The translations under genes were made by a program, and so were the position numbers. A DNA stretch of 62,222 bases, the filler included, from Chrysochromulina tobinii (Eukaryota): the NCBI GenBank assembly GCA_001275005.1. It is 8 parts of 8 records of this genome, joined end to end, with 100 filler letters (N's around TTAATTAATTAA, not from the genome) between each part and the next. Parts side by side here need not be neighbours in the genome. Positions count along the whole stretch, not along the records: positions 54,274 to 58,122 come from JWZX01001158.1; 7 more parts are not named here. One strand, 5' to 3'. The notes under the pieces were generated by a model. The model had not been told where the DNA came from. It made no database searches and saw only the letters and a program-made list of their open reading frames with translations. Positions 33,202-62,222 of the stretch are shown here, piece after piece. How positions within the stretch are numbered: position 1 is the stretch's first letter; the number at the start of each line of letters is the position of its first letter.

Positions 33202-33555
33202 CGCTGACGGCGCCGCTGCTCTCGCCGATACCACCGACGCCGTTCTCCCTGTCGTCCTCGTTTCTGCCGACACTTGTCACGGCGTTATTGCTGTCTATTT
33301 TGCTGCTGTCTATCTTGCTGCTGCCGTCTATTTTGCTGCGGCCGTCTATTTTGCTGCGGTCTATCCTGCTGTTGCTGTCTATTTTGCTGCTGTTTTCTCC
33401 ACCACCACACGTATCGCCGCTCCTTCTACCACACGTCGTTCCCTTCGCTGCCGTGGAGCTGGCGACACGAGCGGTGTACGCGATGAGGTGCCCTCTCCGC
33501 GTTTCTACCGCGTTTCTCTCCCTTTCCTCGCCACGCCTGCGCCGAGGTTGATCGA

Positions 33556-36500
33556 TTGGCACTGTCTGCTCTTCAACGCAATTATCCCGGCCTTGCCCCG
33601 TCTCGCCTTCGACGGATTTGGAGTCGCCTTGCTGGGAATGCGCAATTCCGCGGGTATCAGGTTGGATGGGCTGTCGTTCGAGGACACGGGAGCGACCCGC
33701 TGATCGCCGTCGCCAAACTTCTCGTGTCTTCCCGGGAAGTGTGGGTAGATGAACTCGCTGCTACACGAGATGGCTCGGCTGCGGCGCGCTGGGCTCTCTT
33801 GTCGGCACTCGAATCCGCGCTCGAGCTGCGCCTCACCGCTCCCGAGGCTGTTGTCCGCCTGCGTGTGGCTCTCGCACCCTCTCGAGACTCGCGAGGTGCG
33901 CACGGCATGTACCGTAACCAACTGCACCTCCGCGACGGCGTACCAGAGCTCCCCGGGCCGTGGCAGCACGATTGTACTGAACCTGGATACGTTCTCATGC
34001 ATGGACTGGTTGGCGAGCTCGTTGCTCGCCTCTGCGTGGTACTATCTTCGAGACCTAATGCTCCGGGGACGCAATTCTACTGGCGCACGTCGTGCTCGAT
34101 TCCCGCTGCTTTCTCGCTTGCCTTTGCGTCCACAGCTTCTCTTCTTGCTCCTATCGGTACCGCTGCTTCGCCCGATGGGGCTGCTGCTTCATGCACGCCT
34201 CCTGATGCCGCGCCGTGCGACGCTCTCGACCGGAGTGTGCTTGTACCTCTTTCATCCGTCACTCCATCCGCACCTGCTGGTTCTTCTCGTCCACCATTCG
34301 ATGTTGATCCTGCTGCTGGTCTCCTCACTCCACCGCCCCGAGGGCGCTCTGGCACGGCATGGGAAGATGAGGGCGCGCTCCTTCACGCCATTGTCGCTGC
34401 AAGCTGCGAACCTTCTTCCGCGTGCCACGCACCGCCCACTGATGACGACCCAACCGACGTACGTCCGCCGCCGCCTCCTCTCTCACCGTCCCTTCCACGT
34501 CTTCGCTTCGACACCCTGCCTTCCTCCCACCCGTCGACTCCCACCGTCGATCCTGCGCCCTCCACGTCCACCGGTACTCAGGCGCTGGTCGCGCCCCTGC
34601 TGCCCTCTGCGCCGGTGCTGCCTCCTCGCGGCGAGTCTCTCCTTGTATGGAACGCGGCCGGGTGGTGGTGCGGAGACAGCGAGTCGGGCTCCGACGAGCA
34701 CCAGGCTATCGTTGCCTCTCGATATGACGTGCTTAACCCTTTGCTTCGCGGACGCGACGCGCCGACGTACATCGTGCTCAACGAGATCAGCGGATCCATG
34801 CGAGATTCGGCTCATCCGCGTGGTCTTGGTGCGTGGCTTCGTGCGGCCGGGTATGGCCACTTCTTTTATCCGGGGGGGTCGACTACGCGACAGCGCAGCG
34901 ATGGGTCCACAGGGGCCACTGGCGGCGTCCTCCTCGCGTGGATGCGCAGCGAGACGAGCGCGTGCGGCTCGCCCCACTTTGATCCTAAGTCCATGACGAT
35001 CGCTCTCGACTTTCGCCATCGGAGCTGTGCGCGAGACGCTCCACCTATGCGACTGCTCGCCGTCTACGGGGCGCATCGGCGGAACGGACGGGAGCAGGCG
35101 CTTCGAGCCATCACTCGGCACGTTACGCAGACTCGGGGGTGCCTGGTCGCGGGCGATCTCAACGTTGTTCCTAGTTCTACGTGGAAATGCCGCGCTCGGC
35201 GAATGACCGTCGCCGACGAGGAATTTGCTGCCCTTACGGACGGCGGCGCACTTCTGGATGCCGGTACATCGATGGTCCATATTGTTGATCTTGGTCTCGA
35301 TCACGATCGTGGACAGTTTTCTCGGGCGCACTGGACGGCGACTCTTGCTGATGGGTCGCCACAGGGCACGGCGACACTCGATCATGTTCTCACCGCGGGC
35401 TTGGAGCGTGGTCGGTGGCAGCGCCGTGCGGCATGGTATGCCTTTGGTGACGATGGCAAGCTCCTATCGGATCACATGGTCATTGTCGTGGACCGTGCCT
35501 CTCGCTCGGTTACCTCTGACGACCGCGGCGTGCATCGGCCGCCGCGCTTTCTGGTGAGCCGATGGTCCGGGCGCCAGCGAGCTGCCTTCATCGCCTCTTT
35601 TGAGCGCAATCTACAACAGCTGCGTGCTGGCGCGTGGCGCGCCTGCCCGGGGGAGGCTCGACAATCTCTCGCCGAGGGTGCTACGGCTATCACTCAACTG
35701 GTGTCTCTTCTGAATGTCGCCGCCCTCGCCGCGGAGGGCTCCGTGCGGAGCGATCCTCGAGGCGATCGGCTTCGTCGTGTGCATGACGGTGGAGGCGGCC
35801 TTCAAGGGGTTAAGGCGCAGCTCCAACGCCAGCAAGGCATTCTACGGCGTGTTAGAGTTGCCCGTCTCGCCGTCGAGCATGCTGCTGCATCGCTCGCGGC
35901 CTTGCGACACGATGTGCTCGCTCATCTCCGTCTTCGCGCGGAACTTCAACTACAGAGCGCCTTGGCCACCGAGCGGGCGCTTTATACACCCACCTCGGCC
36001 ACGTACCTTGCTCGCCACGACCGTAGCCTCCATCGTGCTCTGCTCAGGCCGTATCTTGGACCGCCCGATCAAGCTGCTGCCGTGCGCTCGTCTGCGGCCG
36101 CCTCTCGGCTTCTTCGCGACATTACCTACTACAGCCATCAACTTCGAAAGCTTGAGCGACGGGCCGATCGCCCGATCTGGCAGGGGATTGCCGATGCGAT
36201 GGCGGGTGGCGGGCGCGACGCCATCGTTGCTGCGATGAGGCGGCCGACGCAGCGCGATGGTTCCCACGGCGGCATTATGGGCTTGTACCGCAATGACCAG
36301 CCGATGGTCAACCGCAACGGCGCTCAAGTTCCAGGCGAATGGATTAGCGAACCCTCGGCGGTACGGGCGGAAGCGGGCGCCATCTACCGACACATCGATG
36401 ATGCCAACTTTGGTGCTGGTACCGTGGACGCTCGCGTGATTGGGTTTCACAACGCCCTGTGTCAGCCCCCGTGGCCCGAGCTTCCCGGCCACGACGGTTC

Positions 36501-39500
36501 AGAGTGGCGCCTTCCACACGAGTGCGATTTTGCTGCCTTTTGTGCACTGCTTTGGCGCATGCACTCGAACAAGGCTACCTCTCTTGACCGCGTCTCCAAG
36601 GAGATGCTCGAACTCCTCCCCGACGCGCTGCGTCGTCCCTTCTACGTTGCGGCCATGGCTGTGGCCACTCCCGACGCGCGCGGTGCCCGCTCCAAGCCCG
36701 CGTACTGGACGCGCGTGCCGGTCAAGCTCCTCGATAAGAAGGTCCCGTCGCCGTGCATCTCCAAGAAGCGCGACATCGGTCTCCCTTCGCAGTTGCTGAA
36801 GATTCAAGCGGGTCTCTACCTGCCCGCGTACGCGGCAATCATGGGACGGCTGCCTGGCAACTTTGGCTGGACGCCCGGAGTGGCTGCGCGTGGCGCCGCC
36901 TTGTGTGGCGGCCTCGTGCTCGATCACACACATCTCCTGTCGCACTTTCTCCTCGCCATTTACGCGGATATCCAGCGCTTCTTCCCGTCTATGGACCGTG
37001 GCTACGTCCTTATTGCTGAACAGTGGCGCGGGCTCCCGCGCGATGTGCGCGAGGCGACCCTTGCACTCTACCACGACTCCTGCTTCCTCTACGAGACGGA
37101 GCATGGGCTCGCCGAGGGTGCTGCGCGACCTGCTCGCGACTCGGGTGGCGTCGAGTTCGACTTCACGACCGTTCAGTCGCGGTGCGGCTACTTCCAGGGG
37201 TGCCTCCTCTCTACCGAAAAGGCCAAGATTTTTATGGCCAGCCTCAGCGAGGCGATCGACACGCTGGTCGGCGGCGGCGGGGTTCGTTTGTGGAACGGCA
37301 CTTTCCACGGGGGACGGCGGTACCCGAGCATTCTTTGCGCCGACGACCTGCTCGGTAGCTTGACGAGCTGGGTGGCTGGCATCGTCTTCATTCGCCTTCT
37401 GGACGAGTGGGCCGACGTCTCGGCTAGCCACTTTGGCATCGCCGACGACGCGTCCAAGACGACGTTCTCTGCCATCTTTGTCGATGGCTCCGGCGTGCCG
37501 CACGAAGCCCCGGCGCCGCCTGCGTTCCTCGCCGCCGCGCGCATTGGTGGCCGCGCCATCCCGCGCCTCCCGTACGACGCCGAGTACGCACACGTCGGCG
37601 ATCGACGCAAGCTCAACGGCGATCAGAGCCCCACCCGGGGCAAAGCGGTCGGCCTCTGCATGGCGTGGCTCAAGCGCGTTGAGCAGATGTGTAGGTGCAG
37701 CCCGCGCGAGTTTGCTCATGCTACATACGTTGGCCTTGCCTCTGTCATCGACGCGTACGCTCCGTTGGCGCCGCTGACTTTCGCGCAAGCCGAGGCGATC
37801 GAAAAGGTTAAGCGTGCTATTTATAAGCGACGCTTCCGCGGGCTGGTCTCTGCAGCCTGCGCCGACCGGTATCTACCTGATGCTCTGCGCGCGGCCCCAC
37901 AGTACGGTCTCCTCACGGCAGGCCTTCCCGAGGCCTCGCGTGTTGGCGATGGGTGGTTTCACTGCGCTTCTCTCAACGCCGCCAGCATCCACGCTGCTTT
38001 TACCGACGCCATCTCCGATGGCATCGACAGCCAGCTCCGATTCTGTGCCCGGGCGCTTCTTTCCCTTACGTGCTTTCTCTGGGGCAGCTTTGGTGCCCAT
38101 CCGGCCACTTGGTCTTGGGTACACCTCGAACATCTCCTTGCGAACCCGGATCCATCCGTCGGCTCCTCCTCGGTGGGCCGTGTCTTCGCCACCGAGGTCT
38201 ACATGAAAAACGTGGCTTTGCTTCGCCGACTCGCCGCATTGTCCAACGGCGATCTAGCGCCCTCGTTCAACTTCACCTTCGAGCACGTACCGCCCGCCGG
38301 GGATCCCTTTGATCGGACCGCCCTCATCTACTCTTCCAAGCTGGCGCATGATACCTTACGCTTGTTTGAGGGCGACCTCATCTCGGAGACCACGTGCGTG
38401 CAACTTGGGCGACGGCGTCGACCGGTGTGGCTTCTCCTCTCTGCAGGCATTGTCGTCCGGTCGCATGTATGTCGTGCAGACGGCTCCGACTTTATGACCT
38501 TTGCTGAAGCGGCGCTGGTCGTACCCGCGTTTGCGCGACGTGCGGGTTCTGCACTCCTCGCCTCGCAACGCGCGTGGGATCAACTGATCACCGACCTTCG
38601 CGATCTCGACGTCGAGACGGTCCCGGGGGAGGCCGTCCTCGATGCACAGACGATCTGGCGGGGCACGGCGTTCAACATGGCCGGGGCGCCTGACGGCTCC
38701 GCCGGCACTGGGCCCCGCGCCGAGCTCGATGATCTCATACAGCGCATGGCGAACGGCGACGTCGCCGCCGCGAGCGAGTGGACAGCTGCTTATCGCACCT
38801 GGTCCGCGGCACCACCCCCCCCGCGATGCGAACGGCCGCTGCCGTCACCCACCGCGGAGGAACTCTGCGGTCCTCACACCCGATTTCTCGTCCCTGCGCG
38901 CGGAGGGGAAATCGAGACCATTGTCCGAGGACGGCCCGCCCCGACCTGCTCCGCGGTTGATGCGGCTGTGCTTGCGCGGTTCCAGTCGCAATCGTGGCGC
39001 GTCGCCCGCGACGGCCGCTCGCTTGCCTGCTCCCACGGCACCGAGCTCCGGCAGGCGTCCGTCATCGTCCAACTCTACGCGGCCGCGCTCCCCATCGCCA
39101 TCGCTGCGTTCGACCGCGAGCAAGCCGCCAAGGCTCATCGTCGTCTCAAAGTCAACGAGAAGCGCAACCTTGCTGGACTCGACCCGCTGCCGCCCGATGA
39201 GCCTACTCCCGAGGAGAGGTCCTGGCAAGGGGGACCGGGCTTCTGCGTTGCGCTCGCCAATGCAACCCTCGACGAGATGCTCGCCGACGAGCAGAGCCAA
39301 GGGTTCGCCTACACGGCTGCGGTTGTCGGCGATGGGTCGTGGGATCCTCGGCGGAAGCGCCTCTCGCGCGCCGCGCTGATGCATACCGGCGCATGCCTCG
39401 GCGGCGCTCTCGCTGCCGACGACTTGATTGGAGGCACTCGCGACAACTACGATGCCGAGCTTGCGCATCGCGTCGATGCGCTCGCACGGCTCGAGGGACA

Positions 39501-41784
39501 GCGCGTCTTCTATATCTTTGACTCCACCTCTCCCATTCTCGCAGGAGAGCACTTTCGCCGCCTGAGTCTCCCAGCTCGATCGCGCATGCTCTGCGACGAT
39601 TGGCTCGCCTGGGCCATGTCGTTTGAGCAGCGCCTAGAGACGCTCACCTATTGGTGGTCGCACTCTCACTGCGGCCATTTGCCCGAAGCTGCCGTCGACG
39701 CGCTCGCCAAATCGTTTCTCGCAGGCGATCCGATGCCCCTCCCTCGCCCTCTCGAACCCCCTCGCCATCGGTCCATTCGGCACTATGCCAAGGGCTCGGA
39801 GCGCGACCTCATGCTGCACGTGTACAACCTACACGTCGTGCGGACGCACTACACCGCGCCCTCTTCGATGTTCGCACGTCCAGGGTGCCTCGAGCTTCTG
39901 CGGGTTGCCAAGCTCAACGATCAGCAGCGCTCCACCGTGTTGGCAGTTCGAGATGATCGAGTACGGCTCTTGGGCAGCCGAATCTTTCGGGACACGGGCC
40001 CGCATTCCCTCGGGGCGGTGCTTACTAAGCTGGGCTGCCCGTGCGGCAAGGGGCGACAGACTGTCGAGCATGTTCTCTGGGAGTGCGAGCTGTCCAGCGT
40101 CGTCGCGCGGCGCGCGACGCTCCTCACTCCCGCCTGCACCGTCCTTGGTACCGCACTTGATCGCTGCGAACCCATCACACGCGATCACGCTGTCTCCTCG
40201 ATTGTGCGCCGCGCTCTTGAACGCGGGCAACGCCCGGAGGCGTATCGCACGCTCACGGGTGCTGGGACGCCCCTGAGCATTTCGCGAGACGAGGCTCGGC
40301 AGGCTGCTCTCGCGCACGTACTCGGCATCGTTCAAGAGCCTCTGAACTGGTTTCGCCCGACCAGTCAGCTTGCCCGCCCTCTCCTCCATGCCTCTCTTGC
40401 AATGATTGCTGCCGCGATCCAGGCCTCCACGACCACACTCCGGCATGCCATCCTCACCAGCCGGCGCCGAATGACCCTCTCCTGCGCCCTCCAGCGGCTT
40501 CGGTATCAGACTTGGACCCACCCTAAGCCCGCAGGCACGCCGTGCAGGTGTTGTGCAATCCCCGGCTCGCCCGCGCCGGGCGTTCATGTCCTCGGGTCGC
40601 GTCGTCCGATCGATGGTGCTCGCGCTCTTCAAGCTGTTCAACAGCGGGAGGGCGTCCGCGCTCAGGGTCCTCCCCAGCTCTCGAGCATTCGCTCTCTCGT
40701 CACCCGTGCTCGTGAGGAAGCATTTCTCTCGAGCAGCGCTGCTCTCGAGGTCTCTTTTCGACTACAGCAGGATTGCCTCGCACGGGACGACGACGCATCC
40801 GCCACGTTTGCACGTGTCAATGACGCTCGAGCGCTTGCCGACGACGCTCGGACGCGTGCTGACGACGCTCGGGTGCTTGCTGATGCGCTCGACGGGATCG
40901 ACGAACTTTCTTCTACGCAGGCATGTGCAGACGCGGAGCGTGCATGCGCAGACGCGGAGCGTGCAAGTGTAGACGCGGCGCGTGCACTCGCTGCGCATCG
41001 CGCGGCCGTCATCGCAGCCGCCAATGCTGCTCGACTCTCGAACGCGGCGGACGCCCGCTATCGTGACCTCGACTCGCACGCTCATCGGGTCTCGGACTTT
41101 GCGTATTTCGCCGCCCAACATGTCTCTGGTATCATCCTCGACAGCCAACGTGCTGCGGTTCGATCACATCGGGCTCAGAAGGCGGCCGCGGCGGCGCGGG
41201 CGGCGGCGACGCCGCGCCTCACCCCTGCGGAACGCCGGGTGCTCACGGTCCAGCGTAAGCGTCGGCGGCGAGAGGAGCAGGAGGCGGACTCGACCGTCCA
41301 GTTTCTCCTCGCTAAACGACGCCTCGATGCGTGCCCGGCAGCCGCTGACATGGTCACTCGGGCTCGCGCTGCTGCGCGCAGGTGTCGCGCGAACGTCTTG
41401 AGTCTCGACGATCGACTGCGGGCGACCCGCCGATCGGCGATTGTGGCCAGCTACTTGGCTTTGCGACGCGAGGTGGTGGGCGCTAATCATGCGGTTCAGG
41501 AGATCGTTCTGCGTATGCGCACGGCTGCGCGCGACATGCGCAGAGGGGTGCTTGCTCGGAGACTACACGGGCCTCCCCCTCGGATAGGGTACGAGCGGCG
41601 AGTGTGGATCCGGCTCGCGGGGCTTACGCCGCCGCGGCGCTCGCGCGTGCGTGCTGCGGCAGCTGTGGCCGCCGCGAACAGCGGTCCTATTGGTACCTCT
41701 ACTATACATTCGGGGGAAGGGGGGCACCGGTCTGGAGCAGATGCTAGTCCGGCGCTCTCCCTTCCCCCACGACTTGCCGATTAA
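33556..41784 (+). CDS. LINE polyprotein: possible GNAT, APE endonuclease, reverse transcriptase, RNase H, zinc knuckle, helical/basic tail
   Basis: APE motifs LVWNAAG, VLNEI, LAVYG, VAGDLN, TLDHVL, SDH (34639-35478). RT motifs KKRDIGL, ADIQRFFPSMDR, GYFQGCLLS, LCADDL. RNase H motifs VGDGSW, DAEL, IFDSTS, SHSHCG...VDALAK. Knuckle CPCG...EHVLWEC. The listed start is TTG, so the true start is uncertain. Confidence 0.93.
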   Translation: MALSALQRNYPGLAPSRLRRIWSRLAGNAQFRGYQVGWAVVRGHGSDPLIAVAKLLVSSREVWVDELAATRDGSAAARWALLSALESALELRLTAPEAVVRLRVALAPSRDSRGAHGMYRNQLHLRDGVPELPGPWQHDCTEPGYVLMHGLVGELVARLCVVLSSRPNAPGTQFYWRTSCSIPAAFSLAFASTASLLAPIGTAASPDGAAASCTPPDAAPCDALDRSVLVPLSSVTPSAPAGSSRPPFDVDPAAGLLTPPPRGRSGTAWEDEGALLHAIVAASCEPSSACHAPPTDDDPTDVRPPPPPLSPSLPRLRFDTLPSSHPSTPTVDPAPSTSTGTQALVAPLLPSAPVLPPRGESLLVWNAAGWWCGDSESGSDEHQAIVASRYDVLNPLLRGRDAPTYIVLNEISGSMRDSAHPRGLGAWLRAAGYGHFFYPGGSTTRQRSDGSTGATGGVLLAWMRSETSACGSPHFDPKSMTIALDFRHRSCARDAPPMRLLAVYGAHRRNGREQALRAITRHVTQTRGCLVAGDLNVVPSSTWKCRARRMTVADEEFAALTDGGALLDAGTSMVHIVDLGLDHDRGQFSRAHWTATLADGSPQGTATLDHVLTAGLERGRWQRRAAWYAFGDDGKLLSDHMVIVVDRASRSVTSDDRGVHRPPRFLVSRWSGRQRAAFIASFERNLQQLRAGAWRACPGEARQSLAEGATAITQLVSLLNVAALAAEGSVRSDPRGDRLRRVHDGGGGLQGVKAQLQRQQGILRRVRVARLAVEHAAASLAALRHDVLAHLRLRAELQLQSALATERALYTPTSATYLARHDRSLHRALLRPYLGPPDQAAAVRSSAAASRLLRDITYYSHQLRKLERRADRPIWQGIADAMAGGGRDAIVAAMRRPTQRDGSHGGIMGLYRNDQPMVNRNGAQVPGEWISEPSAVRAEAGAIYRHIDDANFGAGTVDARVIGFHNALCQPPWPELPGHDGSEWRLPHECDFAAFCALLWRMHSNKATSLDRVSKEMLELLPDALRRPFYVAAMAVATPDARGARSKPAYWTRVPVKLLDKKVPSPCISKKRDIGLPSQLLKIQAGLYLPAYAAIMGRLPGNFGWTPGVAARGAALCGGLVLDHTHLLSHFLLAIYADIQRFFPSMDRGYVLIAEQWRGLPRDVREATLALYHDSCFLYETEHGLAEGAARPARDSGGVEFDFTTVQSRCGYFQGCLLSTEKAKIFMASLSEAIDTLVGGGGVRLWNGTFHGGRRYPSILCADDLLGSLTSWVAGIVFIRLLDEWADVSASHFGIADDASKTTFSAIFVDGSGVPHEAPAPPAFLAAARIGGRAIPRLPYDAEYAHVGDRRKLNGDQSPTRGKAVGLCMAWLKRVEQMCRCSPREFAHATYVGLASVIDAYAPLAPLTFAQAEAIEKVKRAIYKRRFRGLVSAACADRYLPDALRAAPQYGLLTAGLPEASRVGDGWFHCASLNAASIHAAFTDAISDGIDSQLRFCARALLSLTCFLWGSFGAHPATWSWVHLEHLLANPDPSVGSSSVGRVFATEVYMKNVALLRRLAALSNGDLAPSFNFTFEHVPPAGDPFDRTALIYSSKLAHDTLRLFEGDLISETTCVQLGRRRRPVWLLLSAGIVVRSHVCRADGSDFMTFAEAALVVPAFARRAGSALLASQRAWDQLITDLRDLDVETVPGEAVLDAQTIWRGTAFNMAGAPDGSAGTGPRAELDDLIQRMANGDVAAASEWTAAYRTWSAAPPPPRCERPLPSPTAEELCGPHTRFLVPARGGEIETIVRGRPAPTCSAVDAAVLARFQSQSWRVARDGRSLACSHGTELRQASVIVQLYAAALPIAIAAFDREQAAKAHRRLKVNEKRNLAGLDPLPPDEPTPEERSWQGGPGFCVALANATLDEMLADEQSQGFAYTAAVVGDGSWDPRRKRLSRAALMHTGACLGGALAADDLIGGTRDNYDAELAHRVDALARLEGQRVFYIFDSTSPILAGEHFRRLSLPARSRMLCDDWLAWAMSFEQRLETLTYWWSHSHCGHLPEAAVDALAKSFLAGDPMPLPRPLEPPRHRSIRHYAKGSERDLMLHVYNLHVVRTHYTAPSSMFARPGCLELLRVAKLNDQQRSTVLAVRDDRVRLLGSRIFRDTGPHSLGAVLTKLGCPCGKGRQTVEHVLWECELSSVVARRATLLTPACTVLGTALDRCEPITRDHAVSSIVRRALERGQRPEAYRTLTGAGTPLSISRDEARQAALAHVLGIVQEPLNWFRPTSQLARPLLHASLAMIAAAIQASTTTLRHAILTSRRRMTLSCALQRLRYQTWTHPKPAGTPCRCCAIPGSPAPGVHVLGSRRPIDGARALQAVQQREGVRAQGPPQLSSIRSLVTRAREEAFLSSSAALEVSFRLQQDCLARDDDASATFARVNDARALADDARTRADDARVLADALDGIDELSSTQACADAERACADAERASVDAARALAAHRAAVIAAANAARLSNAADARYRDLDSHAHRVSDFAYFAAQHVSGIILDSQRAAVRSHRAQKAAAAARAAATPRLTPAERRVLTVQRKRRRREEQEADSTVQFLLAKRRLDACPAAADMVTRARAAARRCRANVLSLDDRLRATRRSAIVASYLALRREVVGANHAVQEIVLRMRTAARDMRRGVLARRLHGPPPRIGYERRVWIRLAGLTPPRRSRVRAAAAVAAANSGPIGTSTIHSGEGGHRSGADASPALSLPPRLAD

Positions 41785-41948
41785 CGGCTTGTGTTCACAC
41801 GAGTTCTTTGTGTTGGCACGGGCTGTGTCGGCCACACCTCCGTCCATAGTGATAGTGGCTCTCGTGCTTGGGGGTCCGGAGAGTGTGCGCGTTGTGTTGA
41901 GCAGCAGCAGCAGCTGCACAGGAAAGTTACCATTTTGGGAATTCATCC

Positions 41949-43673
41949 ATGGACGCGAGTGGTGGTAGCTTCGTGGCGGCCAATGCGATGGTCGACGCGC
42001 TCCGTCGCGGCGACGAGGCCAAGGCCGAGGGCCTCATCGACAGGGTGACAGGAGCGGCCCACCTCGGCCTTTGCCTGCTTCGTGCATGTGAGACTGGTCA
42101 CCCTAAGTGCACGAAGCTGCTGCTCGCCGCCCACGCCGCCGTCGACCATGCAGACAGCGACGGCGTCACGCCTCTGTTCGCCGCCTGCGTCAAAGGGCGC
42201 GGCGACTGCGTGCAGCTACTGCTCGCCGCCCACGCCACCGTCGACCAGGCAGACAGCGACGGCAACACGCCTCTGATCGCCGCCTGCGACAGAGGCCACG
42301 GCGTCTGCGTGCAGCAGCTGCTCACCGCCCACGCCGTCGTCGACGAGGCAGACAGCAACGGCTTCACGCCTCTGATCGCCGCCTGCGACAAAGGGTACGG
42401 CGACTGCGTGCAGCTGCTGCACGCCGCCCACGCCGCCGTCGACCAGGCAGACAGCGACGGCAACACGCCTCTGTTCGCCGCCTGCGGCAAAGGCAACGGC
42501 GACTGCGTGCAGCTGCTGCTCGCCGCCCACGCCGTCGTCGACCAGGCAAACCGCAATGGCTTCACGCCTCTAATCGCCGCCTGCACCAAAGGCGACGGCG
42601 GCTGCGTGCGGCTGCTGCTCGCCGCCCACGCCGCCGTCGACCAGGCAGACAGCAACGGCAACACGCCTCTGATCATGGCTTGCGACAAAGGGCGCGGCGA
42701 CTGCGTGCGGCTGCTGCTCGCCGCCCACGCCGCCGTCGACCAGGCAAACACCGACGGCATCACGCCTCTGCTCATCGCCTGCGACAGAGGCCACGGCGGC
42801 TGCGTGCAGCTGCTGCTCGCCGCCCACGCCGTCGTCGACCAGGCAGACAGCAGCGGTACCACGCCTCTGTTCGCCGCCTGCGTCAAAGGGCGCGGCGACT
42901 GCGTGCAGCTGCTGCTCGCCGCCCACGCCGTCGTCGACCAGGCAGACAGCAACAGCCGCACGCCACTGTACGCCGCCTGCATCAAAGGCAGCGGTGACTG
43001 CGCGCGGCTGCTGCTCGCCGCCCACGCCGTCGTCGACCAGGCAGACAGCAGCGGTACCACGCCTCTGTACGCTGCCTGCGACAAAGGGTACGGCGGCTGC
43101 GTGCAGCTGCTGCTCGCCGCCCACGCCGCCGTCGACCAGGCAGACAGCGACGGTACCACGCCTCTGTACGCCGCCTGCGACGAAGGCCACGGCAAGTGTG
43201 TGCAGCTGCTGCTCGCCGCCCACGCCGCCGTCGACCAGGCACACAGCGACGGCGTCACGCCTCTGATTGCCGCCTGCGATGAAGGCCACGGCGGCTGCGT
43301 GCGGCTGCTGCTCGCCGCCCACGCCGCCGTCAACCAGGCAGCCTGTGACGGCGTCACGCCTCTGTACGCCGCCTGCTTCAAAGGCCACGGCAAATGCGCG
43401 CAAATGCTGCTCGCCGCCCACGCCGCCGTCAACCAGGCAGCCAGCAACGGCGTCACGGCTCTGATCGCCGCCTGCAACGAAGGCCACGGCGACATAGTCA
43501 AGGTGCTCGTGCATGCTGGCGCACGCACCGACATGCGATGCGGTGCGGCCACAGCCCTCAATCTCGCAGAGGCCCACGGCCATACCGCCATCGCAACATT
43601 CCTGCGCAGCCGGCGCCGCGCACCTGCGACGATCGCTGCGGTCGCTCCGGTGTCGAGTGCTGAGCGTGCGGCT
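41949..43673 (+). CDS. Ankyrin-repeat protein (~16 repeats), 3'-truncated
   Basis: 33-aa/99-bp units GxTPLxAACxxGxGxCVxLLLAAHAxVDQAD. Confidence 0.95.
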
Positions 43674-54075: not shown

Positions 54076-55035
54076 AAAGAACCCCGGCACCTCGGCCACC
54101 GTTTGGAGTGATTCTGAAGCGGTCTGTGGGGGGGGGGGGGGTTGTGTTGTATGCGTGGCCTCTACTCGGCGGCNNNNNNNNNNNNNNNNNNNNNNNNNNN
54201 NNNNNNNNNNNNNNNNNTTAATTAATTAANNNNNNNNNNNNNNNNNNNNNNNNNNNNNNNNNNNNNNNNNNNNAAAAGTTTTGACAGGGGGTTTATGACA
54301 GGTGACACTTAGCTCTTGTGCACCGCCTTCGAAGTCGAGAGCCGTGCGTGAGGATCATCCAACTCCGGATCATCGATGAGATCCATGCACACCGGCCTTG
54401 ATAGAACTCGAGGTGTGTCAGGAGGTCGCTGAATCACGCGAGCAGAAAGGAAGGTAACATGGACGGGTCCGGTAAGAAGACATATTGAAGCCAAGCATCC
54501 ACAGGCAACGAACGAAGAAAATCGCGATAACGACATGCCTGTGACACGCACTGAGACTCACTGGTGCTGCCTTGTTCTTGCAGTTGAAGTAGTTTGCTAT
54601 GTACAGCAACCACATGTAGCACTTCACGTTCAAGATGAAGTTCGGAATCGTCGAGTAGAGATCTCAGAGTGCCACATCGATTGGCAAGAAGAATATCACG
54701 GAACGCCAGTGACAGTGGAATGCAACTGATGACCTCCATGTACTCAGAGGGAATGATGACGTCACGCAAAAAGCAAAACAAAAAGATATGCCAAGCACTG
54801 CACTGCTGATCATATTCCAGAACCCAGCCTTGAACTGCCGTGACTTGCGACAGGAATTCGCATTCGGCGCGAGAGGACGGGCTGCACAATGACGACAAAG
54901 ATGTCGCGTCGGATGCAGATCGGACGCGAACCAGCGATCCGTGGGACACGAGGGCACCCCCGACCAAAGGCCAAGAAGTCCCCCCGGCGGACATGGATTT
55001 CGCGCGAAGTGGTCTCAACAAAAAGACAACGAGGT

Positions 55036-55492
55036 GCGAAACCCGGACTTCCGAAGTCCGGGTTAGGCACCTGTCCCGAGTACCCGGACTTGGCAGGTGC
55101 CTAACCCGGACTTAGCCAAACGAGGGCGGGAAAAGGTCCGGGATAGTTGCCTAACCCGGACTTAGATAACGCTGAAGGTGCGTAACCCGGACTTCCCAGC
55201 AATACCTAAGTCCGGGTTAGGGACCGGGCACAAGTCCTTAACCCGGTCTTCACACCTCCAAGTCCGGGTTAAGAACCGGGCACGGTTCCCTAACCCGGGA
55301 CAATTTGAATTTTCAAATATCCAAGTCCGGGTTAGGGACCGGGCACAAGTCCCTAACCCGGTCTTCACACCTCCAAGTCCGGGTTAGACACCCGGGCACG
55401 GGTTCTTAACCCGGACTTGGCCAAGTCCGGGTTAGGCACCTCTGGCCAAGTCCGGGTTAAGAACCCGTGCCCGAAAGATGTCCGGGTTACGC
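55036..55492. repeat. Array of inverted taacccggac/gtccgggtta motifs
   Basis: About 20 motifs in mostly alternating orientation; a ~64-bp block is repeated at 55208 and 55323. Confidence 0.9.
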
Positions 55493-55647
55493 ACACCACT
55501 CGTACTCAACCGTCCGCGTCTGCAGTCCGCGTCGAGGACAGGTGAACGCTCAGCGACATCCTTCCCAACTCTGTCGCGGCACAGCCAATACCACATAGCG
55601 ACTTCATCTTTCGCAGCGGCGATCGGCTCTCTCCGTAGCGCGACGCG

Positions 55648-57960
55648 ATGGATTGGGCCAACGGCGTCTATCGCGGCGAGCCTCGCGTGGAGGAATTGCA
55701 CGCCAAAGTCGTCCGCCTCAGGCAAGAGGTGGCCGCTGCAGAGCCAGTCGACACGACGGCAAAGATGCGAGTCGCAGCGGCCACGGATGCCCTGAGCCGC
55801 GCGGAGACCAAGGCGGCAGAGGCTGAAAATGCCGTGAGTGAATACATCAAATCCCAGGCCAGCGCCTTCAAAGAGGACGCGCGGATGGCGACCAAGGTTG
55901 ATGCCGCCACCGCAGAAGTCGACCAGGCGCGACACCGGTTGCAGGAGCTCAACGAGCAGCCGACTGCGCAGAATGCCTGGGACGGTAGCGCCAACGCGAA
56001 GGCGCTCGGCGCGCTCACGGACCGCGATCTGAACGAGGTGCGCAAGTTTTCGAAGCCCCCTCATGTTGTGCGCCGCGCCCTCGAGCTCGTGCAGGCCATG
56101 CTGGCGGTGGCCGACGGTACCGAGAGCCTGCCGCCGTCGGGCACGGGCGACGTGCAGTGGGCAGAGCTGCAGCGAATGCTCGCGCGCGACGATTTCATAC
56201 GGCAGATGCTCACGCTCAAGCCGGCGGCCCTCTCCGCGCGCCCGCACCTGCTCACCGAGATCGGCGAGCGCTGGCCTTCGCTGCAGGAGGCTGTGGGTAC
56301 CAAAGCTGTGCCGCACGACAGAGGAGGCTGGCGCGCCATCGCAAAGGCCGCGAGCTCCACACGCGGCGGCGGCGGCGACGGTGGTGGCGGCGGCATGCGT
56401 GCAGCTGCTCCGGCGGCGGCGGCGGCCAAGGAGAATACTGGCATGAGCGACGCGCAGCAGGTGGCTGCACCACCGTCGAGTGCCAAGAGCAGTGGCGGCG
56501 CACGCGGCGCTTCGACGGCCGGTCGCACGGGCCGCTTTGCGGCGGCAGTAGCGGCGGCAGCGGCGGAGTCAGACGCGGCGGCGGTCTCGAGAGGCGAGAA
56601 GCAACCAGCGGCCTTGGGCCTCTCGAGCCTCACGATCGAAGCTGTGGAGTACGCGTCGCGGCCGTGTGGGGCCATCTTCCGGCACTGCGCCAACGTGGCC
56701 GCCGCGGCGCTGGCTCTAGCGCTTGAAAGGGCGCGTGCCCAAGCGGTGCTTGAGGCTGCGATCCAGCGGCTCGCTGGCGTGTCGGGTGAGCGGGCGGCGA
56801 CGCAAGCGTACTTGCAGTCTTGTGTGGAGGAAAAGCACCGACGCGAAGAAGTCGTCACCGCCGCGCAGGCTGCAGTCGCTGCGGCTAATGACGCGCGGCT
56901 GGACGCCAAGGTGGCGGCCTCGATGGCCGCGACGGCGCTCGATGGGTTGCGGAAGTCTCTCGAGGAGGCGGAGCGGTTGCTTTCGAGCGCCATCGAGGCC
57001 GTCGAGCGCCGTCGCGAGCGAGACGCTAAGTGGCGCGAAGGGCAAGCCGAGCGCGACGAGGCCGCGCGCCGGGCGGCCCAGGCGGAGATCGAGCGCGATC
57101 TGGCCTCGCGAACTGCACGCCCGCCCGCCGCGTGGCTGCACGAGCATCATATCAAGGAAGATCTGAGCGCCGTGGCGATCGAGTTTGCGACGGTCTCGGC
57201 GTCACTGCCGGCCGATGCATCCAATAGCCTCGCCAAGATTGCCAGCGAGCTGCGCTCCTCGGTCACGCTGCGCCTCCACATTGCGGGGCACGTGCAGCCC
57301 GATGAGGACGCGCGACTCGCCTCGCAGCGTGCCATGAACGTCGGCGGCTTGCTCATCGCACTCGGCGTACTCCCACTCCAGCTTCGCGCCAAGGGATACG
57401 GCGCCAGGGCCCCGATCGGGCCGGGAGAGAAGAGACGCCTTGGACTCAAGTCGCTCCGCCGCGTCACGCTGCATGCCCTGGCCGAGGTGCGCACGCGCAC
57501 GCCGTGCGAGTTCGGGCCGGGGGAGCTGGCGCCGCTGGAGAGCGAGGCGGTGCGGGAGATGGTGCGTGCGGTCGCGGCGTTGATGCAGCTCGATGAGCAC
57601 AAGGAGGTTCGCCTGAGCGTTGAGGGTCACAGCGACGACCATGGAAGCGCAGCAGAGAATGTGAGGATCTCCCTCGCCCGCGCAAACGCCGTGTGCCGCC
57701 AGCTCGAAGGCTTAGGCGTCGACCAGGCGCGGCTCGTGCCCCATGGCTTCGGCGCCGCCTTCCCGATCGACGACAATGGCACCGAGGACGGCCGACAGCA
57801 CAACCGGCGCGTCGAATTCCTGGTCATCCCGACATGCTTCGCCGCCGCGGTGCGGAGTGACGCGACGGCCGCGTCGACCGGGGGCAGGGGCATGGGAGAA
57901 GGACTTTCTAGCCATTTGAGCAACCGTCCTGGCGTGGCTAAGGTGCTTCGGTTGTTTTGA
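55648..57960 (+). CDS. Dynein stalk/microtubule-binding-like domain fused to two OmpA C-terminal-like domains
   Basis: Coiled coil, then DLNEVRKFSKPPHVVRRALELV...WAELQRMLARDDFI...VEYASRPCGAIFRHC, then coiled coil, then LHIAGHV...ASQRA...KGYG...RRV and VEGHSDDHGSAAENVRISLARANAV...GFG...P...NRRVEF. Confidence 0.85.
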   Translation: MDWANGVYRGEPRVEELHAKVVRLRQEVAAAEPVDTTAKMRVAAATDALSRAETKAAEAENAVSEYIKSQASAFKEDARMATKVDAATAEVDQARHRLQELNEQPTAQNAWDGSANAKALGALTDRDLNEVRKFSKPPHVVRRALELVQAMLAVADGTESLPPSGTGDVQWAELQRMLARDDFIRQMLTLKPAALSARPHLLTEIGERWPSLQEAVGTKAVPHDRGGWRAIAKAASSTRGGGGDGGGGGMRAAAPAAAAAKENTGMSDAQQVAAPPSSAKSSGGARGASTAGRTGRFAAAVAAAAAESDAAAVSRGEKQPAALGLSSLTIEAVEYASRPCGAIFRHCANVAAAALALALERARAQAVLEAAIQRLAGVSGERAATQAYLQSCVEEKHRREEVVTAAQAAVAAANDARLDAKVAASMAATALDGLRKSLEEAERLLSSAIEAVERRRERDAKWREGQAERDEAARRAAQAEIERDLASRTARPPAAWLHEHHIKEDLSAVAIEFATVSASLPADASNSLAKIASELRSSVTLRLHIAGHVQPDEDARLASQRAMNVGGLLIALGVLPLQLRAKGYGARAPIGPGEKRRLGLKSLRRVTLHALAEVRTRTPCEFGPGELAPLESEAVREMVRAVAALMQLDEHKEVRLSVEGHSDDHGSAAENVRISLARANAVCRQLEGLGVDQARLVPHGFGAAFPIDDNGTEDGRQHNRRVEFLVIPTCFAAAVRSDATAASTGGRGMGEGLSSHLSNRPGVAKVLRLF

Positions 57961-58222
57961 GACGCCCGCACGTGTGGGCGGGACATCAAGGACGTAGCCC
58001 TTCCACGCCTCAAAGCTCAATCGCCCACTTTTTTGTTCTTTTCGACGTTATACTCGTTTTCCCCCGCCCACCGGCGCGGCATAGCCGGGGCGGGGGCACG
58101 CGCGCCCGCCGCCGGCGCCGCGNNNNNNNNNNNNNNNNNNNNNNNNNNNNNNNNNNNNNNNNNNNNTTAATTAATTAANNNNNNNNNNNNNNNNNNNNNN
58201 NNNNNNNNNNNNNNNNNNNNNN

Positions 58223-61200
58223 AGCCTCGGCACATTCGCCTGTGCCGCCGCCTTTGACCGTAGTGCCGCCTCCGCCACTCCCGCCCGCGCCCGACGACAG
58301 CGGATTCCGCCCTCTGCCGCCGCCGCGACCGCCTTCGACGGAGCTCGGGCGAGCCCTCACGAGCAGCCAGCATGATGGGCGGCAGCTTGCGCACTCCACA
58401 ACCATCGTGGGCTCCGGGTCGATCGTGGGCGACGTCACCTCGGCGTCCGTTTTGGATTACGTGCGTGCGACTCGACCCTGCTCTTTCGCCTCGGGCGCCG
58501 CGGCTCGTCGCCTGTCCACCCCCCGCAAAGCATGCTCGCCCACCTGCCTGGCCGCTCATGCCCTCTCGCGTTCTCACTCGCTCGCTCGCACGTGCTGTGC
58601 ACACAGGCTGTTAGCGTCGCCGTGAGCGGCTCGTTCGCTTACGTGGCGGGATATGGTTCCCACTCGCTAGTGGTGATCGACGTGAGCAACTCTACATCTC
58701 CAGTCATCCGGGGCAGCGTGGTCTCGTCGTCTCTCATGTTGCATGCTCGTGGCGTCGCCGTGAGCGGCTCGTACGCTTACGTGACGGGATGTTATTCGGA
58801 CTCGCTGGTGGTGGTCGACGTGAGCAATCCTTTGTCTCCAGTCATCCGAGGCAGCGTGGTCTCATCGTCTCTTATGGATGAGGTGCGGGTGACCCTGAGC
58901 TGAGTCCATCTCGCTCGCGTCCGCGGTGCCACCGCTTGCTGATGCCCTCTCGCGCTCTCACTCGCTCGCTGTCACGTGCTGTGCTCACAGGCTCTCGGAG
59001 TCGCCGTGAGCGGCTCCTACGCTTACGTGTCGGCACGTCTTTCCGGCAGGCTGACTGTGGTGCTTCTAGACCTGCACTCGCCGCCGTCACCGCCGCGCTT
59101 GCCGCCGCCGCCCTCGCCGCCGCCGTATCCGCCGGGGACAGCGGCGGTGAGCACCGCCGTCGCCCTGACCAGTGCACTCGCCAATACCGCCGTCGGCCGC
59201 ATTGTCCTTGCCCCCGGCACGTACATACTCAGCGCCGAGCTCAGCATCACCAGGAGCGTCGTCCTCGAGGCGGCCGTGGCGAGCTCGGTCGTGCTGAATG
59301 CACAAGCGAGCTCCTCGAGTCCGCGCCGTGTGCTGAACATCAACCTGGGTACGTCGGGCGTCGTGCAAGTGATCGGGCTCATCATCACGGGAGGTTACAC
59401 GTTCACCGTAGGCGGTGGTGTCTTCGTCCAGGGCGGCACGGTGACCTTCTCATCGTGTACCATCACTAGCAACACAGCTGATAATGAGGGGGGCGGCGGT
59501 GTCTATGTCGGGGGTGGCACAGTGGCCATCTCATCGTCCACCATCAGTGGAAACACAGCTTCAACTGGTGGAGGCGGTGTTAAAATCAATGGTGGCACGG
59601 TGACCTTGTCATCGTGCAGCATCACAGGCAACACAGCTATTTATTATGGATCGGGCGGCGGTGTTTTCATCAATGGTGGCACGGTGACCTTGTCATCGTG
59701 CACCATCACTGGCAACACAGCTACATTTACTTATGCGAGTGCGTGGAATGGATGGGGCGGCGGTCTTTACATCCATGGTGGCACGGTGACCTTGTTATCG
59801 TGCACCATCACTGGCAACACAGCAGGAACACAGGGGCCCAATGTCTTTAACTCCGGATCCAACGTCTGCTCCTGGGCAACGGCCCTCACCGGCGTCCATG
59901 GCCCAGTCTCAACTTGCCCGGCACCACCGCCGCTGCCGCCGCCCTCGCCGCCGTCCTCGCTGCCGCCGCCCTTGCCGCCGCCCTCGCCCTCGCCGCCGCC
60001 GCCTCCACCTTCGCCGCCGCCGCCATCGCCCTCCCCACCGCCGCCGTTGCCCTCGCCGCCGCCCTCGCCGCCGCCGCCCTCGCCCTCGCCGCCGCCGCCC
60101 TCGCCCTCGCCGCCACCAACACCACCATCACCGCTCGCGCAGCCCAGATGCGCGGGTGCCTTCAACCTCGTCTTGGTCATTGATAGGTCCACCTCGATGC
60201 TATCGAATATCAATGACACTGAAACCGCGCGGAACTGCCAGTCCAACTGCCCAAGCGGCCAGGTCCCAATCGGCTCAGGGGGGTGTGCAGCGCTGGGTTC
60301 GGCCGCATGGAGAATTGCCTTAAGCAATGGGGCTTGCGGGGCCACCACGATGAGCGCCGTGAAAGACGTGGCCATCTCCATCCTCGATCAAGTGGATTTG
60401 AACGTGGCACGTGTGGGCATCGTCACATTCAGCACCTCCTCCCAAATCTTGGTGCCGTCCCTCCTCAGTACCTCCGGTTCTACCCACCAAATCTCGATGC
60501 CGTTGAGCGCGAATCGAGCTGCGCTGACTGCATCCATCCGGAGCACATTCGCCCATGGCGACACATACACTTCCACCGGCCTTCTTTCCGCCGAGACGTT
60601 ACTCAAGAACGCCACTTCCAGAGTGCGCTCGAACATACCGGATATGATCTGGCTGCTGACGGATGGCGTTCAGAGTTCTCAATTTGGAGGCGACCGCGCT
60701 GCGATCGAGACCGCGGCGGCGATCAAAGCCAACGGCACCACCATATACTCGGTCGGCATCGGAGCTGCTTCGAGCCAGACGATGGAGATGATCGCCAGCG
60801 CTCCAGCAGATATCCACTCGTTTGTGACGTGCAAGACCTGCCTCCAAGACGTTCGCAACAGGTTTGCGAACTTTTGCAACCTCGCTACGAGTCCGAGGCT
60901 GCCGCCAGCACCGCGACCTCCGCTTCCCGACTTGCCACCTCCACTGCCCTCACCACCACCGCCGTCGCCACCGCCGTCTTCACCCTCGCCGCCGCCGCCC
61001 TCGCCCTCGCCACCGCTGCCCTCGCCCTCACCAGCAAACCAGCTAACCAGCTCACCAGCTAGCCAGCCAGGGACCGCGGTGAGCAGCGTTGTAGGCCTGA
61101 CCAGTGCACTCGCCAACCCCGCCGTCGGCCGCATTGTCCTTGCCCCCGGCACGTACATACTCAGCGCCGAGCTCAACGTCACCAGGAGCGTCGTCCTCGA

Positions 61201-62222
61201 GGCGGCCGTGGCGGGCTCGGTCGTGCTGGATGCACAAGCCAGCTCCTCAAGTTCGCGCCGTGTGCTGAACATCAACCCGGGCTCGTCGGGCGTCGTGCAA
61301 GTGATCGGGCTCAACATCACGGGAGGCTACGTAGATGAAGGAGTACCGGGGGCTTTGTGCTCAGAGACGTGCAACTACGCCATCGACGGCTTATGCGACG
61401 ACGGCGGCCCCGGCCATGAGTACAATTACGACGAGTACTATGACTTTTCCCTACGGTATAGAAGTACCTGCGACCTCGGCTCCGACTGCACCGACTGCGG
61501 CCCTCGAGGGGGATGGGGCGGCGGTGTCTATGTCACTTCTGGCACAGTCACAATCACGTCTTCGTCGATCTACGGGAACTCGGTGCAGTCGACGTATGGA
61601 GGGGGCGGCGGTGTTTACGTCTATTCCGGAGATGTCTCAATCATCAACTCGCAGATCTACTCCAACTCAGCGCCTGGCTTTGATCATAGGATTTGGGGGG
61701 CGAGCGCCGGTGTCTATGTCTATTCCGGCACCGTCACGATAACGTCTTCCTTGATCTACGGGAACACCGCTTCCGGAGGCGGTGGTGGTGTCTTTGTCAA
61801 TTCTGGCACAGTCTCACTCACCAACAGCCAAGTGTATTCCAACCAAGCTAACTCGGGCGCAGGTGTCTTTATCTATGGAGGCACTGTCTCAATCATCGGC
61901 TCCCAGATCTACTCCAACACAGCTTCTGGCCCTTGTTGCGCATCGGTGGGCGGCGGTGTCCTTGTCAGTTCTGGCACAGTCACGATTGCGTCTTCGTCGA
62001 TCTACGGAAACACAGCCATTGGCTCTAATGGAGCTCAACAAAATCAGGGTGGTGGTGTCAGTGTCTGGTCGAGTGCACTTGTCAGTATCTCGTCATCTAT
62101 GATCTATGGAAACACAGCTGCTTATGGGCCCAATGTCTATGCCGGCTGTGCCTACATGCAGCATTGCATCTGCACCTGGGCAACGACCCTCACCGGCGTC
62201 TACAGCGGGTGGACGTCAGAGC
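58223..62222 (+). CDS. Large surface protein, partial at both ends: LVIVD repeats, Pmp-like beta-helix, Pro-rich linkers, VWA, Cys-rich module
   Basis: Introns at 58461-58606 and 58883-58990; the frame from 58991 appears open to the window end. VAVSGSYAYV repeats, GGGV/ITGNTA repeats, VWA LVLVIDRSTS...LLTDG...IYSVGIG (60161-60810), and CDDGGPG...CDLGSDCTDCGPR. Confidence 0.85.

What the first reader, a model, noticed from the sequence alone, without database searches (positions are those of the whole stretch)
55648..57960. Dynein microtubule-binding stalk fused to tandem peptidoglycan-binding OmpA domains
Seen: coiled coil, MTBD-like segment, coiled coil (no AAA motor), then two OmpA_C-like domains; no signal peptide or TM is evident. 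Established: OmpA_C binds mDAP peptidoglycan through the GHxD Asp and the LSxxRA Arg; domain 2 keeps both, domain 1 lacks the Asp. Inference: a cytoskeleton-tethered bacterial-wall sensor or tether in a possibly bacterivorous alga, or an OmpA fold repurposed in the flagellum or haptonema.
Basis: partly seen in the sequence, partly recalled or inferred. Interest (0 to 1): 0.78.

Follow-up and report, generated by a model that had tools for sequence, protein, structure and literature searches.

The report
Motor-less dynein stalk with OmpA domains
A transcribed gene of a haptophyte alga joins the microtubule-gripping stalk tip of dynein, without the motor, to two bacterial-type cell-wall-binding (OmpA) domains; it belongs to a conserved eukaryotic family and likely works as a passive microtubule adaptor whose second OmpA pocket is predicted to bind a cell-wall-type amino acid.

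Summary
Window 55648-57960 is one intact, intron-free ORF of 770 aa: coiled coil, dynein-type microtubule-binding domain (MTBD), coiled coil, then two OmpA_C domains, with no AAA motor. Pfam PF12777 misses the MTBD. A family profile matches cytoplasmic dynein-1 MTBD in two collinear pieces (E 1e-13), and the predicted fold matches dynein MTBDs (Z 15.5). A disordered insert of about 110 aa splits the domain before helix H6 in all full-length members examined. RNA contigs from one lake sample span the ORF unspliced, and 28 of 35 listed coding differences are silent. The NCBI Chrysochromulina tobinii model ('outer membrane protein') cuts out H6 as an intron that these contigs do not show. At least 26 near-full-length proteins (this one included) share the architecture. 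OmpA domain 2 keeps the mDAP-binding Asp and Arg; domain 1 lacks the Asp. Two H1 tubulin contacts are invariant, but the H6 arginine is lost in all members. Best reading: a passive microtubule adaptor with one ligand pocket. Microtubule and peptidoglycan binding are both untested. No paper describing it was found; three earlier AI notes of this scan report the same architecture.

The parts
55648..57960 (+). Whole gene, single exon, 770 aa (P0001)
   Evidence: Open frame; RNA contigs 55587-58032 unspliced; 28 silent vs 7 replacement differences
55675..55956 (+). CC1: 94-residue helix (residues 10-103), outgoing strand of the stalk
   Evidence: AlphaFold helix H10-103, pLDDT 88-97 in 10-residue blocks 11-100; Foldseek matches dynein chains over about 450 columns
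55987..56292 (+). MTBD helices H1-H5 (residues 114-215); E130 and R132 match yeast dynein E3122 and R3124; PP and W motifs kept
56293..56625 (+). Low-complexity, net basic insert (residues 216-326; K+R 13, D+E 7) between H5 and H6; mostly disordered in the model
   Evidence: yeast dynein has 4 residues at this place (chain 94 to 99)
56626..56658 (+). MTBD helix H6 (residues 327-337); Y335 stands where yeast dynein has R3201
56659..57099 (+). CC2: returning helix (residues 338-484), running past the stalk into the OmpA pair; R338 matches yeast K3204
57130..57480 (+). OmpA_C domain 1, degenerate: no Asp after GH, loop 4 residues shorter, Arg kept
   Evidence: Pfam PF00691, 37 bits
57481..57831 (+). 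OmpA_C domain 2, canonical: D663, R678, NRR 719-721
   Evidence: Pfam PF00691, 56 bits
57832..57957 (+). Low-confidence C-terminal tail
   Evidence: pLDDT below 50 for residues 734-770

Best explanation
The protein carries a dynein-type stalk and MTBD with no motor, plus two OmpA domains, and likely acts as a passive cytosolic microtubule adaptor whose second OmpA domain is predicted to bind a diaminopimelate-type amino-acid ligand. Shown: the architecture, a single transcript, purifying selection and the conserved residues. Inferred: CC1 and CC2 pair into an antiparallel stalk of about 14 nm (94 residues at 0.15 nm each) with the MTBD at its tip. With no AAA ring there is no ATP-driven helix sliding, so binding would be static and set by the stalk's own registry. 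The invariant H1 Glu/Arg pair, a basic residue after H6 and the basic disordered insert would supply the grip, probably weaker than dynein's strong state. CC2 runs on and holds the OmpA pair away from the lattice. Domain 2 would bind the ligand (most simply an mDAP-bearing peptidoglycan fragment reaching the cytosol, or an endogenous mimic), and domain 1 would be structural. The MTBD most likely derives from a cytoplasmic dynein-1.
For: MTBD homology. Residues matching yeast E3122 and R3124, named as tubulin salt-bridge partners in PMC7042235, are Glu in 37 of 37 and basic in 37 of 37 aligned members. The K3204-equivalent is basic in 20 of 22 members of the window's group; PMC4298687 names R3469 and/or K3472 as partners of alpha-tubulin E416, and I take these as the yeast R3201/K3204 equivalents (inferred from their place in H6 and spacing of three). 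The distant group C keeps basic residues at the K3117 (9 of 9), R3152 (9 of 9) and R3159 (8 of 9) positions. OmpA2 Asp is kept in 31 of 33 and Arg in 31 of 35, while OmpA1 has Asp at that place in 1 of 33; D271 and R286 bind diaminopimelate (PMC6572160). The architecture is kept end to end between groups only 27% identical. One transcript; 28 of 35 differences silent against 26% expected, p 3e-11.
Against: No binding of either kind was tested. The H6 arginine (yeast R3201) is Tyr, Phe or His in 33 of 33 members. In this protein three more contact positions are not basic (D125, A172, A179), though R126, R176 and R180 lie next to them. The insert of 62-299 residues sits beside H6 and could hinder docking. 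The OmpA Arg may be kept for structural reasons, since it also survives in domain 1. How mDAP would reach the cytosol of this alga is not shown. The full-length model has pTM 0.43, so the arrangement of the domains is uncertain. The dynein-1 origin rests on ranked profile scores, not on a tree, and this protein alone scores best against an axonemal MTBD.
Confidence: 0.45

Rival explanations
1. Purely structural microtubule strut or cross-linker (cortical array, flagellar root, axoneme or haptonema). The OmpA pair serves as a protein-docking or dimerising module, and no bacterial ligand is involved.
For: Long rigid helices and a cytosolic build. Bacterial OmpA C-terminal domains dimerise (PMC6572160). 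Haptonema microtubules have links and no visible motors (PMC6398456).
Against: The ligand-contact Asp is kept in domain 2 (31 of 33) but lost in domain 1, which suggests selection for a pocket. No localisation evidence exists.
Confidence: 0.25
2. The MTBD fold is a relic that no longer binds microtubules; the helical hairpin has been reused for another partner.
For: The R3201-equivalent is never Lys or Arg (0 of 33); the K3117-equivalent is acidic in 18 of 25 members of the window's group; the R3152- and R3159-equivalents are basic in 0 of 25 there. Single neutral substitutions at such sites lowered affinity more than 2-fold in yeast dynein (PMC7042235). A large insert lies next to H6.
Against: The two H1 contact residues are invariant, group C keeps five of the six contact charges, and neighbouring basic residues could substitute.
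Confidence: 0.18
3. One reading: a tether that grips intact walls of prey or associated bacteria and links them to the cytoskeleton during feeding.
For: Intact OmpA2 motif. Several haptophytes hunt bacteria with the haptonema (PMC5095461).
Against: No signal peptide or membrane-spanning segment is evident in this protein, and no member of the 43 scanned exceeds a 19-residue hydropathy of 1.81. A membrane would therefore lie between the protein and any prey.
Confidence: 0.1
4. Artefact: assembly chimera, bacterial contamination, a broken dynein gene or two genes.
For: The gene lies alone on a 3.8 kb contig, and the public gene model differs.
Against: One RNA contig spans the ORF. Purifying selection. 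26 near-full-length proteins, this one included, share the same build. Pattern scans found no relative in prokaryote genomes (0 of 93 candidates) or viral contigs (0 of 32).
Confidence: 0.02

Closest known systems
Stalk and MTBD of cytoplasmic dynein-1 heavy chain (PDB 6kjo/6kjn/6kio yeast; 3err, 5ayh, 3wuq, 3j1t mammalian; Pfam PF12777 MT)
   Same: CC1-MTBD-CC2 order, helical fold (Z 15.5, rmsd 5.7 over 163 residues to 3err; Z 12.2, rmsd 2.5 over 128 to the axonemal MTBD 6l4p), H1 'L.EVR..PP' and H6 'AS..CG' motifs. The first 19 of 40 PDB hits of the family profile are dynein-1; the best axonemal hit has E 2.7e-5.
   Different: No AAA ring, linker or tail; 770 aa instead of more than 4000; an insert of 62-299 aa between H5 and H6; H6 Arg replaced by Tyr or Phe; below Pfam's threshold.
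Bacterial OmpA_C / Pal / MotB / YiaD peptidoglycan-binding domains (Pfam PF00691; PDB 3td3-5, 5u1h, 2k1s)
   Same: Both domains pass Pfam's cut-off. The model matches OprF 5u1h at rmsd 1.2-1.4 and the mDAP-bound 3td4/3td5 at rmsd 1.4. Domain 2 keeps the Asp/Arg pair at the same spacing.
   Different: No beta-barrel or export signal; fused to a eukaryotic cytoskeletal module; domain 1 lacks the Asp. No NCBIfam whole-protein cut-off is reached among the 25 of 39 families shown.
Chain L of Toxoplasma intraconoidal microtubule structure 9ya2 (probably ICMAP2; identity inferred, not verified)
   Same: A microtubule-bound globular domain that aligns to the MTBD model over its whole length (Z 8.2, rmsd 3.2, 124 residues). 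ICMAP2 binds the microtubule surface with 8-nm periodicity (PMC12819142 section 8).
   Different: Z 8.2 is inside the range that helical bundles reach by chance. No sequence match at E up to 10. The paper's main text draws no dynein link. Whether it carries any OmpA domain was not checked.

Membership tests
Dynein heavy chain | Ring of six AAA+ modules | tested here: not met
   No AAA family in Pfam or in the 25 NCBIfam rows shown; the 770-aa model holds no such domain
Dynein heavy chain | N-terminal tail and linker, length above 4000 aa | tested here: not met
   RNA contigs match from 55587 to 58032, close to the ORF ends; the 27 proteins in the tree are 421-1071 aa
Dynein stalk/MTBD (PF12777) | Pfam gathering score | tested here: not met
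   No hit for this protein or its pieces or for 6 relatives; 1 of 10 further relatives gives 13.5 bits against a cut-off of 24
Dynein stalk/MTBD (PF12777) | Sequence homology across H1-H6 between two coiled-coil strands | tested here: met
   Profile E 1.2e-13, two collinear stretches, chain 16-94 and 99-133 of 6kjo; group C profile E 6e-10 to 3wuq; Atlas score 0.93
Dynein stalk/MTBD (PF12777) | Helical MTBD fold | tested here: met
   Predicted model only: ranks 1-5, 7 and 9 among 48,161 chains are titled as dynein stalk/MTBD entries, Z 7.8-15.5
Dynein stalk/MTBD (PF12777) | Tubulin salt-bridge residues on H1, H3, H6 | tested here: inconclusive
   Of six yeast contact residues this protein keeps two exactly and group C keeps five; the H6 Arg is lost in 33 of 33. 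The H3 positions were mapped by eye from the conserved Trp.
Dynein stalk/MTBD (PF12777) | Binds microtubules | not testable with these tools
   Needs co-sedimentation or cryo-EM
OmpA_C domain (PF00691) | Pfam gathering score and fold | tested here: met
   37 and 56 bits against 27.2; Foldseek rmsd 1.2-1.5 over about 108 columns for the best pairs
OmpA_C domain (PF00691) | mDAP-binding Asp and Arg (A. baumannii D271/R286), domain 2 | tested here: met
   D663 and R678; family 31 of 33 and 31 of 35
OmpA_C domain (PF00691) | mDAP-binding Asp and Arg, domain 1 | tested here: not met
   Q550 in place of Asp; Asp in 1 of 33; His-to-Arg spacing 13 instead of 17 in 32 of 33
Bacterial OmpA/Pal/MotB envelope proteins | Export to the periplasm with a membrane anchor (barrel, lipobox or TM helix) | tested here: not met
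   Hydropathy scan only; no barrel family in Pfam
Bacterial OmpA/Pal/MotB envelope proteins | Binds peptidoglycan | not testable with these tools
   Needs pull-down or calorimetry

The most novel reading that the evidence does not exclude
A protist cytosolic peptidoglycan-fragment receptor, built from a bacterial OmpA domain and anchored on microtubules by a stalk taken from cytoplasmic dynein-1, a motor that haptophytes are reported to have lost. It would couple detection of digested or invading bacteria to the cytoskeleton, a role analogous to animal NOD1 (analogy recalled, not from a call) but with unrelated parts.
Probability: 0.2. Interest if true: 0.9.

Novelty: new variant of a known kind. 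Interest (0 to 1): 0.66.

Why it matters
It shows dynein's microtubule-binding tip used as a portable, motor-free module, and a bacterial wall-binding fold kept under selection inside eukaryotic cells. Both halves are small, soluble by prediction and easy to assay, so two open questions become testable: how an MTBD behaves with no AAA ring, no H6 arginine and a 100-residue insert, and whether mixotrophic algae sense bacterial wall fragments. If the dynein-1 origin holds, the gene is a relic or an import of a motor reported absent from haptophytes. The public annotation ('outer membrane protein', with H6 spliced out) hides the architecture.

Tried and rejected
Pfam PF12777 as the test of the MTBD: no hit, one sub-threshold hit in a relative; too insensitive for the split domain. 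Whole-protein Atlas search: no usable hit. Whole-genome context: no genome is held, so I could not check whether this alga encodes dynein-1 or other OmpA proteins. Neighbouring genes: the window joins eight contigs with linkers, so adjacency means nothing. Taxon of group C: cluster look-ups gave no organism names; the one locus fetched (L001) shows no spliced leader that I could recognise from memory at its 5' end, which is uninformative. Prokaryote and viral pattern scans were negative but are insensitive. No search for longer, fused forms was run (all three homologue searches used 'near' lengths). No tree with real dyneins was built, as no dynein sequences were held. The careful family tree did not finish; the quick tree was used. 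Foldseek on the MTBD-only model and the VIA second look on the full model were never run because the machine was busy. 51 top-scoring OmpA proteins outside the family carry mostly bacterial partner domains (barrels, PD40, TSP3, BON) or none, so they gave no view of other eukaryotic OmpA fusions. RNA runs X13 and X17 cover the gene only in pieces, with little or no cover over the insert; this is not evidence either way. The 5' end of the transcript remains unresolved. No complex prediction was run: no tubulin sequence was held.

Full report
1. The observation. Window 55648-57960 (+) is one open frame of 770 aa. It lies on a 3.8 kb contig; the window is eight contigs joined by linkers, and several of the others carry plainly eukaryotic genes such as PHD/bromodomain proteins. 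A named record, 'outer membrane protein [Chrysochromulina tobinii]' (P0005), is 100% identical over the part it shares, so the source is that haptophyte or a very close relative. Pfam finds two OmpA domains above the curated cut-off (37 and 56 bits) and no AAA or MT family.

2. It is one real gene. In two RNA runs of one lake sample (X14, X15; X15 is a polyA library) a single contig covers 55587-58032 at about 98% identity with no intron, while the flanks are uncovered. Of the 40 differences listed (7 more were not shown), 35 fall in the ORF; 28 are silent and 7 change a residue, against 26% silent expected (p 3e-11). The NCBI model starts at M40 and removes residues 216-407, which correspond to a GT-AG stretch at 56293-56868. 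That cut would delete MTBD helix H6 and half of CC2. The RNA contigs run through it and no such joint is listed. This rests on one sample; two other RNA runs gave only fragments. The relatives also keep H6 after an insert.

3. The dynein part. Residues 101-225 alone give weak but repeated hits to dynein MTBDs (best 2rr7, E 0.0012). The ESM Atlas places residues 100-225 with PF12777 clusters (27 of 30 hits, best 0.93, 182 shared features). A profile of ten N-terminal sequences gives dynein-1 MTBD at E 3e-5, the distant group C profile gives E 6e-10, and a profile of nine sequences cut to this region gives yeast dynein MTBD at E 1.2e-13 in two collinear pieces. The pieces match chain residues 16-94 and 99-133: where yeast has four residues, the family has an insert of 62-299 residues in the 24 of 26 sequences that cover both sides. 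The AlphaFold model has mean pLDDT 79 and pTM 0.43, with confident CC1, MTBD helices, CC2 and both OmpA domains and a disordered insert. The model of residues 101-391 ranks dynein MTBDs first among 48,161 chains (3err Z 15.5, rmsd 5.7, 163 aligned; 6l4p Z 12.2, rmsd 2.5, 128 aligned). The full model also aligns to dynein chains over about 450 columns. The first 19 of 40 profile hits are cytoplasmic dynein-1 (6rzb recognised as mouse dynein-1 from memory); the best axonemal hit has E 2.7e-5. PMC3583065 (passages) lists Haptophyceae, from Emiliania huxleyi as of 2011, as lacking dynein-1 and dynactin. Against a firm dynein-1 origin: no tree was built, and this protein alone scores best on an axonemal MTBD.

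4. Can it still bind microtubules? PMC7042235 (passages) names six yeast contact residues: K3117, E3122, R3124, R3152, R3159, R3201. I mapped them through the alignment and counted them in 43 family sequences, fragments included (n is the number with a residue in the column). E3122 is Glu in 37 of 37 and R3124 is basic in 37 of 37. R3201 is Tyr, Phe or His in 33 of 33. In the window's group A, the K3117 position is acidic in 18 of 25 (the next residue is basic in 21 of 25), and the R3152 and R3159 positions are basic in 0 of 25 (the residue after the latter is basic in 15 of 25). The K3204 position is basic in 20 of 22; PMC4298687 (passages) allows the Dictyostelium lysine three residues after the H6 arginine as an alternative partner of alpha-tubulin E416. 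Group C keeps five of the six charges. The surface is therefore conserved in part and remodelled in part. Binding is likely but unproven.

5. The OmpA part. Domain 2 aligns without a gap to the GHTD..SLARA motif of A. baumannii OmpA, whose D271 and R286 bind diaminopimelate (PMC6572160, passages). D663 is kept in 31 of 33 and R678 in 31 of 35 members; some exceptions are visibly garbled gene models. Domain 1 has Asp at that place in 1 of 33 and a loop four residues shorter in 32 of 33. The model matches OprF and the mDAP-bound OmpA structures at rmsd 1.2-1.5 (the output does not say which domain). No export signal or membrane helix is evident by hydropathy.

6. The family. Searches and a domain scan of 157 proteins give 26 near-full-length proteins (this one included) plus fragments. 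In a quick tree of 27 rows, groups B and C each form one side of a 100% branch, and the long branch separates C from A+B. Groups A and C align end to end at 27% identity (E 6e-46) and share the H5-H6 insert, the H6 aromatic and the degenerate first OmpA domain, which points to a single old fusion (inference). Only P0005 carries an organism name; two group C proteins come from EukProt. Pattern scans found no relative in prokaryote genomes (0 of 93 candidates) or viral contigs (0 of 32). Three earlier AI notes of this scan report the same architecture in other genomes and name dinoflagellates and euglenozoans; I could not check that range, and these notes are not independent support.

7. How it most likely works. 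A stalk of about 14 nm carries the MTBD at its tip. With no AAA ring there is no nucleotide-driven sliding, so it would be a static clamp, perhaps helped by the basic insert (K+R 13, D+E 7). CC2 continues to the OmpA pair, where domain 2 offers one amino-acid pocket. I give 0.45 to this adaptor with an mDAP-type ligand, 0.25 to a purely structural strut, 0.18 to an MTBD that no longer binds microtubules, 0.10 to a tether on intact prey walls and 0.02 to an artefact. Haptophytes hunt bacteria (PMC5095461, whole text), and the haptonema shows microtubule links but no motors (PMC6398456, passages); neither fact places this protein.

8. Novelty. Ten literature searches (listings and abstract starts seen) found no description of an MTBD-OmpA fusion. 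The main text of the C. tobin genome paper has no occurrence of OmpA, dynein or peptidoglycan (PMC4580454, term search only); its supplements were not read and might list the gene. PMC2784329 (passages) reports only the flagellar DHC1b type in E. huxleyi ESTs. The library lacks most subscription papers. The protein is not a dynein and not a bacterial envelope protein; it is an undescribed combination of two known modules. I rate it a new variant of a known kind, interest 0.66.

Noticed in passing
window 55033-55494: A dense array of a 14-18 nt unit in both orientations just upstream of the gene: 8 direct copies in one family and many inverted pairs, one of 31 nt with 100% complementarity. It resembles the subterminal repeats of a DNA transposon (recalled resemblance, not tested).
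   Followed up: no
window 56293-56868: The NCBI C. tobinii model treats this GT-AG stretch as an intron; the RNA contigs read through it. Probable mis-annotation; a minor spliced form is not excluded.
   Followed up: yes
window 55587: The RNA contigs of X14 and X15 carry 59-66 further letters at the 5' end that do not match the window (table 8): an upstream exon or strain divergence. Unresolved.
   Followed up: partly
PDB 9ya2 chain L and 9e5c chain 2e: A Toxoplasma intraconoidal-microtubule chain (Z 8.2) and a 507-residue Trypanosoma doublet chain (Z 6.9) align to the MTBD model; they may be motor-less MTBD-fold proteins already seen on microtubules. The identity of chain L as ICMAP2 is my inference from PMC12819142 section 8; its supplements were not read.
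   Followed up: partly
protein P0046: A family member with an EF-hand (Pfam EF-hand_6, 25.7 bits, cut-off 25) inserted between CC1 and the MTBD; could give calcium control. The record ends before the OmpA domains.
   Followed up: no
proteins P0048, P0049, P0066, P0079, P0152: Group C has a conserved C-terminal extension of about 100 aa after OmpA2 with no Pfam match.
   Followed up: no
window 10988-16187: PHD-finger, Tudor-like and bromodomain ORFs, probably one chromatin-reader gene.
   Followed up: no
window 33487-41781 and 41901-43673: A 2765-codon open frame whose first 1504 residues were scanned and hold an endonuclease/exonuclease/phosphatase domain, possibly a retroelement; next to it an ankyrin-repeat ORF.
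   Followed up: no
window 58943-62221: A proline-rich ORF with a VWA domain and repeated glycine-rich segments, probably a surface protein.
   Followed up: no
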